From contig NC_086373.1 in assembly GCF_036588685.1 (NCBI RefSeq), positions 23,746,001 through 23,810,000 of the forward strand: DNA of 64,000 nt, read 5' to 3'. The notes below the pieces were generated by a model that did no database searches, was not told the DNA's origin, and saw nothing but the letters and a program-made list of their open reading frames with translations. A program made the position numbers and the translations under genes. The DNA comes from Mytilus trossulus. Lineage: Eukaryota. Shown piece after piece: positions 30,762 through 63,471 of the stretch; position 1 is the first letter of the stretch; the number at the start of each line of letters is the position of its first letter.

Positions 30762-31470
30762 AAATAAAATTGAGAATGGAAATGGGGAATGTGTCAAAGA
30801 GACAGCAACCCGACCAAATAAAAAACAACAGCAGAAGGTCACCAACAGGTCTTCAATGTAGCGATAAATTCCCGCACCCGGAGGCGTCCTTCAGCTGGCC
30901 CATAAACAATTATATACTAGTTCAGTGATAATGAAAGCCATACTAATTTCCAAATTGTACACAAGAAACTAATATAAAAATAATACAAGACTAACAAAGG
31001 CCAGAGGCTCCTGACTTGGGACAGGCGCAAAAATGCGGCGGGGTTAAACATGTTTGTGAGATCTCAACCCTCCCCCTATACCTCTAACCAATGTAGAAAA
31101 ATAAACGCATAACAATACGCACATTAAAATTCAGTTCAAGAGAAGTCCGAGTCTGATGTCAGAAGATGTAACCAAAGAAAATAAACAAAATGACAATAAT
31201 ACATAAATAACAAAAGACTACTAGCAGTTAACTGACATGCCAGCTCCAGACTTCAATTAAACTGACTGAAAGATTATGATTTCATCATATGAACATCAGG
31301 CACAATACTTCCCGTTAGGGGTTTAGTATCATACCATCATAACATATATGAGAAGAACATAACCCGTGTCATGCCAACAACTGTTTTTAGAATAAATGTC
31401 TTTAGTTCCGACGCAAAGACCTTATCAGTGACTCAATATTAACGCCAAAATATGCAATCTTTAATGACTT
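30762..31470. repeat. Interspersed repeat family B (SINE/retroposon-like)
   Basis: Terminus AATAAAATTGAGAATGGAAATGGGGAATGTGTCAAAGAGAC is also seen inverted at 35133-35172 and 48971-48996; shares core GGCTCCTGACTTGGGACAGGC with family A. Confidence 0.7.
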
Positions 31471-58600: not shown

Positions 58601-61600
58601 ATTGTATTTTTCAGTTGCGTTTTGTTCAATATGAAAGTTAAAGGTTGATATTCTATTGATGATAGTTACAGAAGTTAACTCTATTTCGAATCATTATGCC
58701 TAAAAAACGAAACCGAATGGAAAACAACTGTCATAGATCTGACTTGGCACAGACAATTTATAGAAATGTTATGTATTATAAACGCTATAAGTTTTAATAT
58801 TTAGTATTTGAGTAGATTAATCAATTTATGGATATAAATGATACGTCGTTTAGAACTACATAAAGTTAAATATGAAAAAAATGTATCTACGTCAACTTAT
58901 ATCAGAAAGTTTACTCAATTATTATTTTGCAGCATTTAACGAGAACATCAAGAAAAATGGTGGATTTTCCTTGACAATGCAGCAGTTTTATGGAATGTTT
59001 GTAAAGAAAATGATTCAGACATGGAGAAACCGTGTGGTAACCTTAGTGCAACTGGTGATGCCGGTTCTTTTTACTATCTTTGGATTGCTCGTCGTGGAAT
59101 CCTCACCGGGTAATACCGCAGATCCTGCCTTAGCTTTGGAGTTATCTTCTTTTGGTTCCGGTTTAACAGCTATTTGGGATGATGGCACTGCAACCACAGG
59201 TGTTGAATTCGACATTGCCAGTAGATATGCAACTTCTATAACTAGCAGCGGTAATACCGCTTTAGATGCCAACGCTCCATCCAATATCAGTACATACCTT
59301 ATGGATAAAGCTGGTACCGTGGGATTATCAACATTCAACACAAAATATATGATAGGCGCTTACCTTGCAACAAGTAACAGTTGGGTAGCCTATTTTAATG
59401 GCGAGCCGTTCCATGCACCTGCAATTTCTTTAGCATATATGATGGATGCAATTTTCAAATACGCTATGAGCAGTAATACATATTCTATCAAAACAACAAA
59501 CTCGCCTTTTAAACTTACAGTAGATGAGAATGAACGAGCTAACTTCTTTACATATATTGGAACAGCCTTTTCACTTGCCTTTCAGATTATGTTCGGAATG
59601 GCGTTTTTGACAGCCACTTTTATCATTTTCCTAATCAAAGAACGATCATCTGGAGCAAAGCATATCCAGAAAGTTAGCGGAGTTGGTTCTTTTGCTTTCT
59701 GGGCATCAAATTTTCTATGGGATTTGATCAATTATCTTATTCCAGTTCTGCTGATATTGATTGTTTTTGCAGCATTTCAAACAGAGGCTTTTGTGGATGA
59801 CGGTCGCCTAGGGATTGTTTTCCTTATATTTTTATTATATGCCTGGAGTTTCCTTCCATTCACGTATACTTTCAGCTTTTTTTTCTCATCAGCTCCATCT
59901 GGAATGGTTGCTATGACTATGCTGAATATCATTATTGGTAAGCAAAGATTTTAAAAATATCTATATATACAAGTCTATATAAGTCTAAATTGAAAACAAC
60001 GTTAAAACGTATGATTGCTTTGGACAAAAACCGCAAAGATGGTTAACCAGAAACATGAGGTGCAAAACTAGTACACCATATCCGGATTTCGACAATTAAT
60101 GTCTCTTCAGTGATGTTAGGGATGGAAACGGTATTTCAGAAGGCCATATAATTTACCTTAATTTAGGATAGACTCTAGAATTTTAAAGAGTTGAAATATG
60201 ATGAACGAATTATATAAACCGGAGTAGAAATATAAAACAAGCCCATTCGAAAAAATATAAACAAGTCTAAATTGGAAACAACATTCGAACCTATCATTGG
60301 GTTGGATAACTGTGCATCTAAAACAAAATTCGTGGAAAAGGGTCTAAATACAGCACAAACAACATTTTCCAAAAAACTAAAAAGCGGAAAAAGTATATTT
60401 TAACAAAACGCATTGAACTATTATATCTACAAGATTAATAGTATAAAATGCATATAGCATTTTCATATCTGTGATAAGATTCTTAATTATTGTATCAGAC
60501 TTCGGCTTAAATTTATTGGCTATTCTGTAATATATTAGTATTTTTTCACAGTGGTTAGTCTTTTTTTTTTATTGTTGAAGAAAATAGAAGTGTTGGCGTA
60601 AAACTGTTTATATCCTGTGTACAGTTCATTTTTTATATTTTATCCCATACTAGTAGATTTATCAACCTTAACATTTTTTTTAAATGAGGAAGTTTTTAAG
60701 CTTGATAGTCTAAATTAAACGACACAGCTCATTATAAATTCAAAAGAAAATAAACCCACATCATATGTAGATCAACTTGCAAGTGAACAATTATAAGTAC
60801 AAAGATTCATTATGTAAACTATTACCACGCAAAATAAGAATGTCTAACCATAGCTGAAAAGACATGGACATTTGTTTTCTTTTTTGATTATGTACTTGTT
60901 AATAAAACATCAAAACTTTTCCAGGTCTTGCTACACTGATTGCAGTATTTGTCCTCAAAATACCCGGATTTAATACATACAATATTGGTAGCTCCTTAGA
61001 CCTTGCATTCGCCATGTTGTTTCCTAACTACTGCATGGGAACTTCATTAATGAGCATGTATGTCAACTGGGGATATACCAAAGCATGTACTGAAAGTGGA
61101 TATCCAGCATCCTGCCAGTCAAGTAAGTCTAGATGTGGTTTATAATTATTATCATGGGAACGGAAAGTGAACACATTTTATTATATATGTGTAAATAAAC
61201 ATCGTCTGGCATAAGTTATGTCTACTACATTATCACCAGCCCACTAGTCAGCACTTTATTGACTTAAATTAGCATGAGTATGGTATTGATACAGGACAAT
61301 AACTTTGAATTTTGGGATCCTCAATTTCGTACTTTATTTGGCCTATTTAACATTTTGTGTAGACGAAATGCACGTCTGGTGCATATTATTTTGATCCTGG
61401 TACCTAAAAAAATATGTGTTTGGTTCAAATAAATGGTCAATATGTCAAATGTATAAATGTCCATATGATGGGATTCAGCTGATCATGACCTTATTTTGGA
61501 AAGTTCGAGTTCTAGGTCAACTTAAGGTTTATGACCCCTTCTGTGGACATTTTTGTACGATTTTTTTAAACTTCAATTGTATCAAAACTACAGATATAAT

Positions 61601-63471
61601 GAATAATAGAGATAGGCCATTTTGTACATATACCAAGGGAAAGTTGATGCAAAACATTTTTATTTACTGTGTCATTGCATTAAATAAAAAAAAGAGTACG
61701 TTGTGGCAAATAAACCAAGATTTTTATAGAATATCCACAGCCTTTAACAGCCAGAGATTTTTGTTACAAAATTTGAAACATAGATTACTCACTTGCTTTT
61801 CTATGATGTGCTAGTGTTTATTTTTTACAAAAAGTTCTAACCAACCTGTTTATTTCATAATACCTCGTGCTGAGTTACTTAAGTCGAGTTCACCCTTAAA
61901 GGTGTACTTGATTTGGTCCACATTTTTATTTGTTTTGACCGCGAATAATTACATTAATAAACTTGTTTTAAGGAAATCAATGCTAGCACTGCATGCTATA
62001 ATCATATATGTATCGGTCATCAAATTGCCAAATATGAGAGTACAAGGATAAAGGCTGTGGATTTTCTATAAAATTTCCATATGTTTAGCATTGAATCAAC
62101 ACTAGGGTACATAATCCTCAATTTGTAAAATACACTTATTGCAACTATAACTGATTTACAGATGTCACCTAGTCTTTACCATTGCTAATTTTCATTACTC
62201 ATCGTTACGTTTTCTTCGTTCACTTGACTCATCGAATACCTTTATTCCAAGAAACTATGTTATATTATCTCTAAAAGAAAGAAACCCGAACTCATGGGCT
62301 TCTACTCGATGTGCGGTTGTAGCAAAATATTTTATTAGGTTATAAAAGAGGGACGAAAGATACCAAAGGGACAGTCAAACTCATAAATCTAAAAGAAACT
62401 GACAACGCCATGGCTTAAAATGAAATAGATAAACAGACTAACAATAGTACATATGACACAACATAGAAAACTAAAGAATAAACAACACAAACCACCCCAA
62501 AAACAAGGGGTGATCTCAGGTGCTCCGGAAGGGTTAGCAGTTCCTGCTCCTCATGATAATAAATTATGTTGTTAATTCTTGTTTCTGAAAAACAAACCTT
62601 TTCTAAAAAAAATATATACATTATAAAATAACAAGGAGCCTAAACCGGTAATAATTGCGATCCAAAATAGAGAATTGAATCTTTTTATACATTTAAATTA
62701 TCTGTTTTGAATAACTTGAACTTATTTTAATAACTCGTTTCTCTTTAACCTTCCTACAGGCTGTGATCCGAATGGCGGTGATATATGCTTCCCAAACTCT
62801 TCTAACTATCTCGACATTACATATCCAGGAGTTGGTCTTTACATATTGTTCCTAGTTGCACAAGGAGTTGTTTACTTTGCTATTCTGTTTATGATTGAAA
62901 ATGATGTATTCAGTAAATGCAAATACAAAGTCAACAATGGAAGTAGTACATCGGTCTCAGATTTACCATCGGATGAAGCCTCTATTGAAGGAAAACAAGA
63001 AGATAATGATGTCGCCGAGGAAAAACATAGAATAAATTCTAATTCTGTCACTCATTTAATGGAAACAGATTCTGTTATTGTCAAGAACCTTACGAAATAT
63101 TATGGTAGGTTTCATGCAGTCGATGGTATCAGTTTTGGAATTGCACCTAACGAATGTTTTGGACTGTTGGGACAAAATGGTGCCGGAAAAACCTCCACAT
63201 TCAAAATGTTGACCGGAGATGTTCCGCTTACAAAGGGTAATGCCTTCATGAATAAATATGATATAAAACAACATATGAGACAAGTTCAACAAAATCTTGG
63301 TTACTGTCCTCAGTTTGATGCTCTCATTGATCAGATGACAGGAAGGGAAACTTTGTATATGTATGCTCGGCTGCGTGGAGTTCAAGAGAACCAAATTAAA
63401 GGTGTGGTTAATGATATAATGGATGTGATGATGTTGAAGAAATACGCCGATCGGGAGTGTGGTACTTACAG
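40358..63471 (+). CDS. ABCA3: ABC transporter subfamily A, ABCA3-like lipid transporter; 16 coding exons in window, C-terminus outside window
   Basis: N-terminus [21 protein letters not shown] resembles ABCA3. EKE-x-KLKESMKLMG motif. NBD1 has [28 protein letters not shown] and [11 protein letters not shown] motif; TMD2 with [12 protein letters not shown]; NBD2 has GQNGAGKT and YCPQFDAL. All introns GT-AG and in phase. Exact orthology needs a phylogeny. Confidence 0.93.
40864..41110. repeat. Interspersed repeat family D (retroposon 3'-end-like)
   Basis: Inverted copy at 62342-62555; decayed copy at ~52605-52790. Confidence 0.7.
41505..41744 (+). CDS. ABCA3: ABCA3-like exon 2 (ECD1; ...WRTDRTFP...GGEP)
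   Basis: ttccag acceptor, GTATGT donor. Confidence 0.9.
42518..42783 (+). CDS. ABCA3: ABCA3-like exon 3 (GFLYIQ...[10 protein letters not shown])
   Basis: tcacag acceptor, GTGAGT donor. Confidence 0.92.
44862..45050. repeat. Tandem duplication, period 98 bp
   Basis: tatacatgtcagaatgtagaatggcaatc... at 44863 and 44961. Confidence 0.85.
46355..46376. repeat. (TA)n microsatellite
   Basis: About 11 TA units. Confidence 0.9.
46541..46705 (+). mobile_element. Decayed tRNA-derived SINE (5' part)
   Basis: A box TGGTCGAGTGG and B box GAGTTCGAAC; similar to the 57811 copy. Confidence 0.55.
50078..50312 (+). CDS. ABCA3: ABCA3-like exon 4 (ESMKLMGM...STFFQR)
   Basis: tttcag acceptor, GTAATG donor. 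Confidence 0.92.
50700..50879 (+). CDS. ABCA3: ABCA3-like exon 5 ([18 protein letters not shown]...YEGT)
   Basis: attcag acceptor, GTACAT donor. Confidence 0.9.
51383..51564 (+). CDS. ABCA3: ABCA3-like exon 6 (GLQWTN...[15 protein letters not shown])
   Basis: tttcag acceptor, GTAAGT donor. Confidence 0.92.
51836..51872 (+). pseudogene. Inactivated hammerhead motif remnant
   Basis: gttacga GTCT tttt AGAC caaa cttgcg TC tggcgt: stem II intact, both core boxes mutated. Confidence 0.45.
52169..52303 (+). CDS. ABCA3: ABCA3-like exon 7 (KTYWCG...[19 protein letters not shown])
   Basis: ttgtag acceptor, GTACGT donor. Confidence 0.92.
52999..53128 (+). CDS. ABCA3: ABCA3-like exon 8 (NBD1 Walker A GHNGAGKT)
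   Basis: tttcag acceptor, GTGAGT donor. Confidence 0.94.
53358..53512 (+). CDS. ABCA3: ABCA3-like exon 9 (Q-loop [12 protein letters not shown])
   Basis: tttcag acceptor, GTAACC donor. Confidence 0.94.
53966..54375. repeat. Family C copy
   Basis: AATAAAGGCAACAGTAGTATATCGC terminus; core TCCTGACTTGGTACAGGA at 54305. Confidence 0.75.
54738..54893 (+). CDS. ABCA3: ABCA3-like exon 10 (signature [10 protein letters not shown])
   Basis: taacag acceptor, GTAGGA donor. Confidence 0.94.
55212..56165. repeat. Family C-related copy whose terminal segment is amplified into a 76-bp minisatellite (9-10 units, ~55220-55930)
   Basis: GCAACAG anchors at 55220 then every 76 bp from 55293 to 55901; element body continues to ~56165. 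Confidence 0.9.
56347..56557 (+). CDS. ABCA3: ABCA3-like exon 11 (Walker [15 protein letters not shown]-loop TTHFMDEAD)
   Basis: tgctag acceptor, GTACGT donor. Confidence 0.94.
56934..57183 (+). CDS. ABCA3: ABCA3-like exon 12 (regulatory domain, GAGYHL...TTMEEVFL)
   Basis: ttaaag acceptor, GTAAGT donor. Confidence 0.92.
57811..58050 (+). mobile_element. Decayed near-full-length tRNA-derived SINE
   Basis: A box TGGCCAAGTGG, B-box-like cagttctaaccc, core tttctcggggtattccgacttcctccccaataaaa, (ATCA)-like tail. Confidence 0.55.
58089..58357 (+). CDS. ABCA3: ABCA3-like exon 13 (acidic/Asn-rich linker [11 protein letters not shown]...NGTYN)
   Basis: ttaaag acceptor, GTACGT donor; its phases (2 in, 1 out) are required to join exons 12 and 14. 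Confidence 0.82.
58933..59937 (+). CDS. ABCA3: ABCA3-like exon 14 (1005 nt; ECD2 and TMD2)
   Basis: ttgcag acceptor, GTAAGC donor; [14 protein letters not shown] and [12 protein letters not shown] motifs. Confidence 0.94.
60073..60116 (-). ncRNA. Minimal type I hammerhead ribozyme (Penelope-like element/retrozyme type)
   Basis: Minus strand reads ACAUCA CUGAAGA GACA-uuaau-UGUC GAAA UCCGGA UA/ UGGUGU: intact core, 6-bp stem I (one G-U), 4-bp stem II, palindromic mini stem III, AUA cleavage triplet. Confidence 0.75.
60925..61122 (+). CDS. ABCA3: ABCA3-like exon 15 ([10 protein letters not shown]...FPNYCMG...)
   Basis: ttccag acceptor, GTAAGT donor. Confidence 0.9.
61190..61405 (+). mobile_element. 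Decayed retrozyme/PLE-associated repeat retaining the 3' half of a hammerhead (AGAC GAAA TGCACG TC TGGTG at ~61361-61381)
   Basis: GAAA-stem III-UC-stem I strand present, CUGANGA half missing; a second degenerate ...CGTCTGGC copy at ~61204. Confidence 0.5.
62342..62555. repeat. Family D copy (inverted relative to 40864-41110)
   Basis: aaaagagggacgaaagataccaaagggacagtcaaa...gtgctccggaagggttagcagttcctgctcc. Confidence 0.7.
62760..63471 (+). CDS. ABCA3: ABCA3-like exon 16 (last TM and NBD2 up to the signature, ...CGTY)
   Basis: ctacag acceptor, GTAAAT donor; GQNGAGKT and YCPQFDAL motifs. Confidence 0.94.

What the first reader, a model, noticed from the sequence alone, without database searches (positions are those of the whole stretch)
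60073..60116. Apparently intact minimal hammerhead ribozyme antisense within ABCA3-like intron 14
Seen: the minus strand reads ACAUCA-CUGAAGA-GACAuuaauUGUC-GAAA-UCCGGA-UA/UGGUGU. All conserved core nucleotides are present, stems I and II pair, and stem III is only 2 bp closed by a self-complementary CCGG, with predicted cleavage between 60079 and 60078. Established: this type I topology with a palindromic mini stem III is typical of hammerheads in Penelope-like elements and animal non-LTR retrozymes, which usually cleave as dimers. Also seen: the motif lies between two ~45-bp direct repeats (AAGTCTAAATTG.AAACAAC... at 59981 and 60263, 282 bp apart). Inference: this may outline a monomer-plus-overlap retrozyme-like unit, of a different family from the one at 61190.
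Basis: partly seen in the sequence, partly recalled or inferred. Interest (0 to 1): 0.7.

Follow-up and report, generated by a model that had tools for sequence, protein, structure and literature searches.

The report
Intronic copy of mollusc hammerhead retrozyme
This is one shortened copy of a non-coding repeat found thousands of times in this animal's genome, whose units carry a predicted self-cutting RNA fold and which is likely pasted into TA repeats by a Penelope-type jumping gene; this copy lies backwards in an intron and is likely a passenger, so it is an ordinary member of a known class.

Summary
The hammerhead at 60073-60116 (minus strand) is real: stems of 6/4/2 bp, palindromic loop 3, predicted cut 60079/60078, 0 like it in 300 shuffles. 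It is the canonical metazoan type I form, not the 'minimal' one. It is one of 3,843 exact motif matches in the genome, in tandem units of 534-577 bp: a non-LTR retrozyme family. The 282-bp spacing is not a monomer; it comes from a deletion of about 256 bp in this copy. Loop 3 covaries as a palindrome (CCGG 3,011, CUAG 703), which fits dimer cleavage. Insertions share one fixed 3' end, run into (TA)n and have ragged 5' ends, a Penelope-like footprint. An intact (TA)n-targeting Neptune-type element has a similar terminus (10/12 nt) but no alignable repeat, so it is only a candidate driver. This copy is old (23 private substitutions in 384 nt), solo and antisense in a spliced intron, so host pre-mRNA cannot be cut by it. 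The scan noted such systems before in other genomes. New family member, ordinary locus.

The parts
60073..60116 (-). Type I hammerhead motif, canonical metazoan architecture; predicted cut between 60079 and 60078
60080..60087 (-). 8-nt palindrome (stem III plus loop 3) that can pair between two copies
60037..60420 (-). 5' part of the retrozyme copy: end of one unit and start of the next; 5'-truncated at about 60420; 19-bp deletion between 60311 and 60310; 23 private substitutions in 384 aligned columns
60031..60036 (-). Junction of the internal deletion (about 256 bp against the 538-bp subfamily) at a short microhomology; at single-copy depth in a DNA run
59970..60036 (-). 3'-terminal segment ending at the family's fixed end, with a 10-bp duplication of the last letters
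59962..59969 (-). (TA)4 tail or target remnant
   Evidence: family pattern
60253..60309 (-). Internal copy of the family's end site (second direct repeat)
59938..60924 (+). Host intron of an ABCA3-like gene (GT..AG, 987 nt), spliced out in 4 of 4 runs

Best explanation
The motif is the intact hammerhead of one 5'-truncated, internally deleted copy of a high-copy non-coding tandem repeat, a non-LTR retrozyme that was likely retrotransposed into a TA run by a Penelope-like element and now likely sits as a neutral passenger, antisense in the intron of an ABCA3-like gene. Shown: family, unit size, fixed 3' end, (TA)n flanks, ragged 5' ends, palindrome-keeping covariation, splicing of the intron. 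Inferred family life cycle: tandem transcripts self-cleave, probably helped by pairing of two loop-3 palindromes, into 534-577-nt monomers that would be circularised; a (TA)n-targeting PLE protein would nick TA DNA, start reverse transcription at a fixed site about 365 nt downstream of the cut, run across the hammerhead (round a circle or along an uncut multimer) and stop at variable points. Host pre-mRNA carries the reverse complement, so it cannot be cut in cis; this solo copy cannot release a unit-length monomer.
For: 3,843 exact motif matches, control 0. Arrays of up to 14.7 units. 181 of 211 ungapped copies in fetched loci keep core and stems (overlapping loci may count some twice). Loop 3 is CCGG in 3,011 and CUAG in 703 of 3,843. 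The double hammerhead is the co-fold minimum (-24.7 against 2 x -8.1 kcal/mol). 46 of 70 blocks in hammerhead-selected loci end at one site, 40 of those before (TA)3 or more; the other 24 ends are scattered. 1,523 exact end-plus-TA termini genome-wide against 2,732 internal copies of the site. 54 of 82 independent 5' junctions follow (TA)3 or more; lengths run from 32 bp to over 4 kb. 44 of 82 span the whole hammerhead. Seven young arrays have within-array distance 0.000-0.005 against 0.006-0.023 to the nearest other array. An intact (TA)n-targeting PLE is in the genome. Internal RT start in a PLE: PMC11167929. Family sequence is in contigs of 4 of 4 RNA or RNA-guessed runs while unique intron 60435-60875 has none (weak, no strand).
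Against: No cleavage, circle or stranded RNA was observed; only contigs were available. No alignable homology between the monomer and the 3' or 5' ends of the two neighbouring PLE families (best E 0.35), so descent from a known pLTR is not shown. 5' ends do not pile up at the predicted cut (6 within 205-226 against 2.8 expected, P about 0.06). Four arrays (L034, L066, L080, L119) are as varied inside as between, which one circular template would not give. The CUAG change may be a single event in one subfamily. 0 of the copy's 23 private substitutions fall in the 44-nt motif (P 0.056), slightly more conserved than pure neutrality predicts.
Confidence: 0.88

Rival explanations
1. The units are the terminal repeat (pLTR) of an autonomous Penelope-like element not yet found, and the arrays are copied from linear, uncut tandem transcripts; there is no circular RNA stage.
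For: The insertion footprint is that of PLEs (PMC8557442 passages). In the anole PLE uncut RNA was the main substrate (PMC11167929). Xenopus retrozymes are homologous to pLTRs (bioRxiv 10.64898/2026.07.22.740005). Some arrays are heterogeneous.
Against: In the fetched loci screened (L031-L150) no RT frame was seen to continue from the unit in its own orientation; the PLE frames found beside it have their own ends and min-type hammerheads. Young arrays are each near-identical inside with their own unit length. Only a small part of several thousand copies was read.
Confidence: 0.2
2. The host has kept this particular hammerhead, for example to cut an antisense transcript of the ABCA3-like gene.
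For: 0 of 23 private substitutions lie in the 44-nt motif (P 0.056). Both junctions of the insertion are in DNA runs under several organism labels, so it is old and shared.
Against: Not significant; 3 of 10 relatives also have 0 private changes in the motif. No unique intron sequence on either strand is seen in 4 runs. The active monomer fold is disfavoured. Introns hold about 43% of Xenopus retrozyme copies, so the place is ordinary.
Confidence: 0.04
3. Plain satellite DNA spread by DNA-level recombination, with a chance or dead hammerhead.
For: One array shows a three-unit higher-order pattern, a sign of later unequal crossing-over.
Against: One fixed end with TA tails at 1,523 places, ragged 5' ends, an intact core in most copies and compensatory changes against the sister family.
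Confidence: 0.02

Closest known systems
Metazoan non-LTR retrozymes (Cervera and de la Pena 2020, PMC7229834; passages and section 14)
   Same: Non-coding, low-GC (34%) tandem repeats with one type I hammerhead per unit, thousands of copies, co-occurring with PLEs.
   Different: Unit 534-577 bp against 150-450 bp (mussel 350-390 bp) in that paper. Whether this hammerhead is one of its two mussel families could not be checked (supplement unreadable). The circular monomer is only weakly more stable than 30 shuffles (-119 against -110 +/- 6 kcal/mol). Circles and cleavage are untested here.
PLE-derived retrozymes of vertebrates (Li, Clavereau, Pollet, bioRxiv 10.64898/2026.07.22.740005; parts 1-3 of 5)
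   Same: Meets their definition of an active family (two or more consecutive units with a complete hammerhead); unit size inside their 51-972 bp range; solo, dimer and multimer copies; intronic copies common.
   Different: No pLTR homology found here; the parts read do not describe a fixed 3' end or TA targeting; this copy is a solo and would not count as active.
Penelope-like elements, Neptune/Nematis type and Naiads (PMC8557442 passages; PMC11167929 parts 1-2 of 4)
   Same: Fixed internal 3' end, 5' truncation, partial tandems, inverted neighbours, insertion into (TA)n.
   Different: No RT or GIY-YIG coding; one end point only, whereas the resident PLE has two, 87 nt apart; canonical rather than min-type hammerhead.
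Minimal hammerheads (min-HHR) of PLE pLTRs (PMC4209133 passages)
   Same: Palindromic positions 15.2-16.2 and loop 3; predicted dimer mode.
   Different: Stem II is 4 bp, stem I 6 bp, no extra nucleotide before stem II: canonical, not minimal.

Membership tests
Type I hammerhead ribozyme | Core CUGANGA, GAAA, UH with three helices, stem I open | tested here: met
   0 in 300 shuffles
Type I hammerhead ribozyme | Covariation of helices among relatives | tested here: met
   Within family mostly invariant, with G-U/A-U and C-G/U-G one-sided changes and one two-sided change in loop 3; the sister family changes both sides in stems I, II and III
Type I hammerhead ribozyme | Self-cleavage after H17 | not testable with these tools
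   No raw RNA reads offered; 5' junctions near the cut inconclusive
min-HHR of PLEs | Long stem II (7-8 bp), short stem I (4-5 bp), extra nucleotide before stem II | tested here: not met
   4 bp, 6 bp, no extra nucleotide against the definition
Non-LTR retrozyme | Short tandem repeats with one type I hammerhead per unit | tested here: met
   (family); the window copy itself is a solo
Non-LTR retrozyme | Non-coding, low GC | tested here: met
   GC 34%; the longest open frame seen in a unit (205 aa) has no Pfam match
Non-LTR retrozyme | Dispersed insertions with retrotransposition marks | tested here: met
Non-LTR retrozyme | Expressed as linear and circular monomer RNA | tested here: inconclusive
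   Family sequence in contigs of 4 of 4 RNA or RNA-guessed runs; contigs show no strand, ends or circles
Non-LTR retrozyme | Target-site duplication | tested here: inconclusive
   A 7-bp AT-rich direct repeat flanks this copy (60423-60429, 59957-59963); no empty allele among the joints listed (15 of 79 shown); TA targets hide duplications
PLE-derived retrozyme | Homology to the pLTR of an autonomous PLE | tested here: inconclusive
   None against two resident PLE families; other PLE families of the genome not screened
Autonomous Penelope-like element | RT plus GIY-YIG open frame | tested here: not met

The most novel reading that the evidence does not exclude
The family is not a piece of its driver's terminal repeat but a mimic: it carries only a short copy of one of the two reverse-transcription start sites of a young, intact Neptune-type element, is copied round a circular monomer from that one site (hence one-armed insertions), and shares the trick with a SINE-like repeat in the same genome. 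That would name both the enzyme and the cis signal for retrozyme mobilisation in an invertebrate.
Probability: 0.25. Interest if true: 0.62.

Novelty: new member of a known kind. Interest (0 to 1): 0.3.

Why it matters
The locus itself matters little: it is an old solo copy on the wrong strand to affect its host gene. The family matters somewhat more. How animal retrozymes are copied is still a proposal in the papers read (PLEs are called a strong candidate in PMC7229834; homology was shown only in Xenopus in the 2026 preprint). This genome offers young near-identical arrays, one sharp end point and an intact candidate enzyme, which makes an in vitro template test simple to set up. Similar TA-targeted systems were already noted by this scan in other genomes, so the footprint is not unique to this family.

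Tried and rejected
282-bp monomer: rejected. Rfam scan, gathering and E up to 10: no hammerhead model hit. Search for an autonomous partner carrying the unit as its terminal repeat: open frames and PLE motifs screened in loci L031-L150, none joined to the unit; blastn of the unit against ends of two resident PLE families gave nothing below E 0.35; a profile search for a PLE helix-turn-helix family was not possible as the library lacks it. Pile-up of 5' ends at the cut: 6 observed, 2.8 expected, P about 0.06, and TA microhomology just downstream confounds it. A second fixed end, as noted for other families: not found; 24 off-site ends are scattered. Empty allele: not among the joints listed; 64 joints were not shown. 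Locus-specific antisense RNA: one 179-nt contig matches this copy closely in one run, but it does not cross the deletion or a flank, so it is not counted. Summed contig depths were not used as expression levels. Extended stem I with tertiary contacts: no stable extension under constraint. Rows dropped before counts: L045-L050 were merged with L044 (one insertion carried inside another repeat); 11 of 93 termini were dropped as duplicate, compound or cut-off before the count of 82; 10 gapped copies of 221 were left out of pair counts. My notebook gives 27 of 30 PLE loci ending in TA; the correct count is 26 of 30.

Full report
Observation. A descriptor scan of both strands of the window finds this motif only, with stem I 6 bp, stem II 4 bp and stem III 2 bp closed by CCGG; 300 dinucleotide shuffles gave 0.023 loose hits per window and none at these stem sizes. 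The predicted cut is 60079/60078. Rfam misses it. By PMC4209133 (passages) this is the canonical metazoan type I architecture, not the min-HHR of PLE repeats.

Host context. The upstream exon matches ABC2_membrane_3 and best matches ABCA3 among solved structures (E 7.7e-48). Contigs of 4 of 4 RNA or RNA-guessed runs join 59937 to 60925, skipping a 987-nt GT..AG intron. The gene is on the plus strand, so pre-mRNA carries the reverse complement of the ribozyme. Run labels point to a mollusc; a bivalve host is my inference and was not tested.

The family. A DNA search of the own genome (1.30 Gb) had 2,771 candidates, 40 scored, 115 matches at about 75-88% identity, many in tandem. An exact 32-nt pattern matches 3,843 times, control 0. 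Units are 534-577 bp (607-608 in a variant) in arrays of up to 14.7 copies. The window copy covers 60420 down to about 59970. It is collinear with the family from 60420 to 60036 and then jumps about 256 bp ahead at a short microhomology to the last 60 or so bases before the family's end. The two direct repeats are therefore the same site in two successive units, and 538 minus 256 gives the 282-bp spacing. The deletion junction stands at single-copy depth in run X1 (30.9 against 36.9 in the flank) and in a contig of run X2, a different organism label; both outer junctions are crossed by contigs in runs X2 and X10 and the 3' one in X5. The copy has 23 private substitutions in 384 columns against 10 close relatives, plus a 19-bp deletion: it is old and shared.

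Structure evidence. Among 221 copies in fetched loci, 211 were ungapped and 181 of these keep core and stems (overlapping loci can count a copy twice). Variation sits in loop 2, at H17 (A or C) and in the centre of loop 3. Genome-wide, that centre is CG in 3,011 and UA in 703 of 3,843 matches, 129 for all others. Both keep the 8-nt palindrome, and these letters are unpaired in a monomer but paired in a dimer. This may be one event inherited by a subfamily. A sister family in the same genome changes both sides of pairs in all three stems and again has a palindromic loop. By ViennaRNA the active monomer fold is -2.1 against an inactive minimum of -8.1 kcal/mol, while two copies co-fold into the double hammerhead at -24.7. 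Against an obligatory dimer, PMC7229834 (section 14) reports about 0.1 per min for a cloned mussel repeat and calls a 2-bp stem with a tetraloop the usual invertebrate form.

Insertion footprint. In loci chosen by the hammerhead, 46 of 70 blocks end at one site about 365 nt downstream of the cut, 40 of them before (TA)3 or more; the 24 other ends are scattered. Genome-wide there are 1,523 exact end-plus-TA termini and 2,732 internal copies of the site. For 93 termini on contig C1 chosen by that pattern, 82 gave independent 5' junctions: lengths 32 bp to over 4 kb, median 492; 54 follow (TA)3 or more; 36 stop short of the cut and 44 span the whole hammerhead. The template thus often runs across the cut site, so it is a circle or an uncut multimer. 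5' ends near the cut are only slightly enriched (6 against 2.8, P about 0.06). Seven young arrays are almost identical inside (0.000-0.005) and further from the nearest other array (0.006-0.023), each with its own unit length, as one monomer template would give; four arrays are not, and local homogenisation gives the same picture. Opposite-strand neighbours occur both tail-to-tail (6) and head-to-head (3). Fixed internal start, 5' truncation and TA bias are PLE traits (PMC11167929 parts 1-2; PMC8557442 passages).

Candidate driver. A PLE with C-terminal GIY-YIG and the CX2-5CxxC linker of Neptune/Nematis type (clade by motif only, no tree) lies beside several copies. It is young and has intact 928-aa frames. 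Of 30 loci, 26 end in (TA)n at one of two sites 87 nt apart (11 and 15), and 6 of 29 other than the query locus hold the retrozyme within 1.5 kb. Its ends do not align with the unit (best E 0.35). Its first end matches the retrozyme end at 10 of the last 12 letters, which 4 of 351 other TA-adjacent ends reach; a SINE-like repeat also scores 10, the second PLE end 8, two Naiad-like ends 5-6. I noticed this likeness before designing the score, so it is a lead and not a test. Naiads, which also target TA, are frequent around these loci and remain an alternative driver.

Expression. Family sequence is in contigs of all four runs laid, while unique intron 60435-60875 has no cover. Three of the four are only guessed to be RNA, and contigs show no strand, ends or level, so this is weak support for transcription of the family and none for this copy.

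Host use. None of the 23 private substitutions lies in the motif (P 0.056), but 3 of 10 relatives show the same, no antisense transcript is seen, and introns are a common place for retrozymes (about 43% in Xenopus). I give host use about 4%.

What is known. The element fits non-LTR retrozymes (PMC7229834; bioRxiv 10.64898/2026.07.22.740005, parts 1-3 of 5). Its unit is longer than the mussel repeats described (350-390 bp); the supplement that shows those hammerheads could not be read, so overlap with them is open. Six paper searches listed no description of this family or of a fixed TA-tailed end in retrozymes, but the library lacks most subscription papers. Earlier notes of this scan describe similar TA-targeted retrozymes in other genomes; none lies near this place.

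Verdict. Observation confirmed, interpretation partly supported. New member of a known kind; interest 0.3, carried by the family's clean footprint and a testable candidate enzyme, not by this locus.

Noticed in passing
L152-L179 (G000, several contigs): A young intact Neptune/Nematis-type PLE has two fixed TA-tailed ends 87 nt apart, and 7 of 7 head-to-head pairs among 30 loci join one arm of each end, as if the two cut strands start copying at different sites. Many copies have a changed first core nucleotide in their min-type hammerhead.
   Followed up: partly
L142:620-762 (minus) and many other loci: A short repeat with letters like tRNA promoter boxes (my reading; ARAGORN finds no tRNA) ends in (TA)n with a terminus like the retrozyme's (10 of 12) and is often nested against it. 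A possible PLE-mobilised SINE; one paper search found nothing.
   Followed up: partly
window 61190-61420: Degraded copy of a sister hammerhead repeat family on the plus strand in the next intron; only the 3' half of the core is left near 61360-61382; intact relatives exist elsewhere.
   Followed up: partly
window 31286-31350 (minus): Rfam SECIS_1 hit above threshold lies in sequence like the 3' end of a Naiad-type element in L072; selenoprotein Naiads of clams are described in PMC8557442.
   Followed up: partly
L044-L050: One retrozyme insertion (one unit plus about 40 bp) is carried inside another young repeat present at seven places with 97.5-99.6% identity over 2.5-3 kb.
   Followed up: no
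L054, L063, L064, L084, L115, L044: Several 5' ends fall at unit positions 539-543, 30-35 nt before the end site, the size of the PLE 'tail'.
   Followed up: no
L088:2562-2620 (minus): Another related hammerhead with the same 5' core but a different palindromic loop 3, changed on both sides at its outer pair.
   Followed up: no
window 61722-61746 and 62049-62073: 25-nt inverted repeats at 96%, 302 nt apart, possibly the ends of a small DNA transposon.
   Followed up: no
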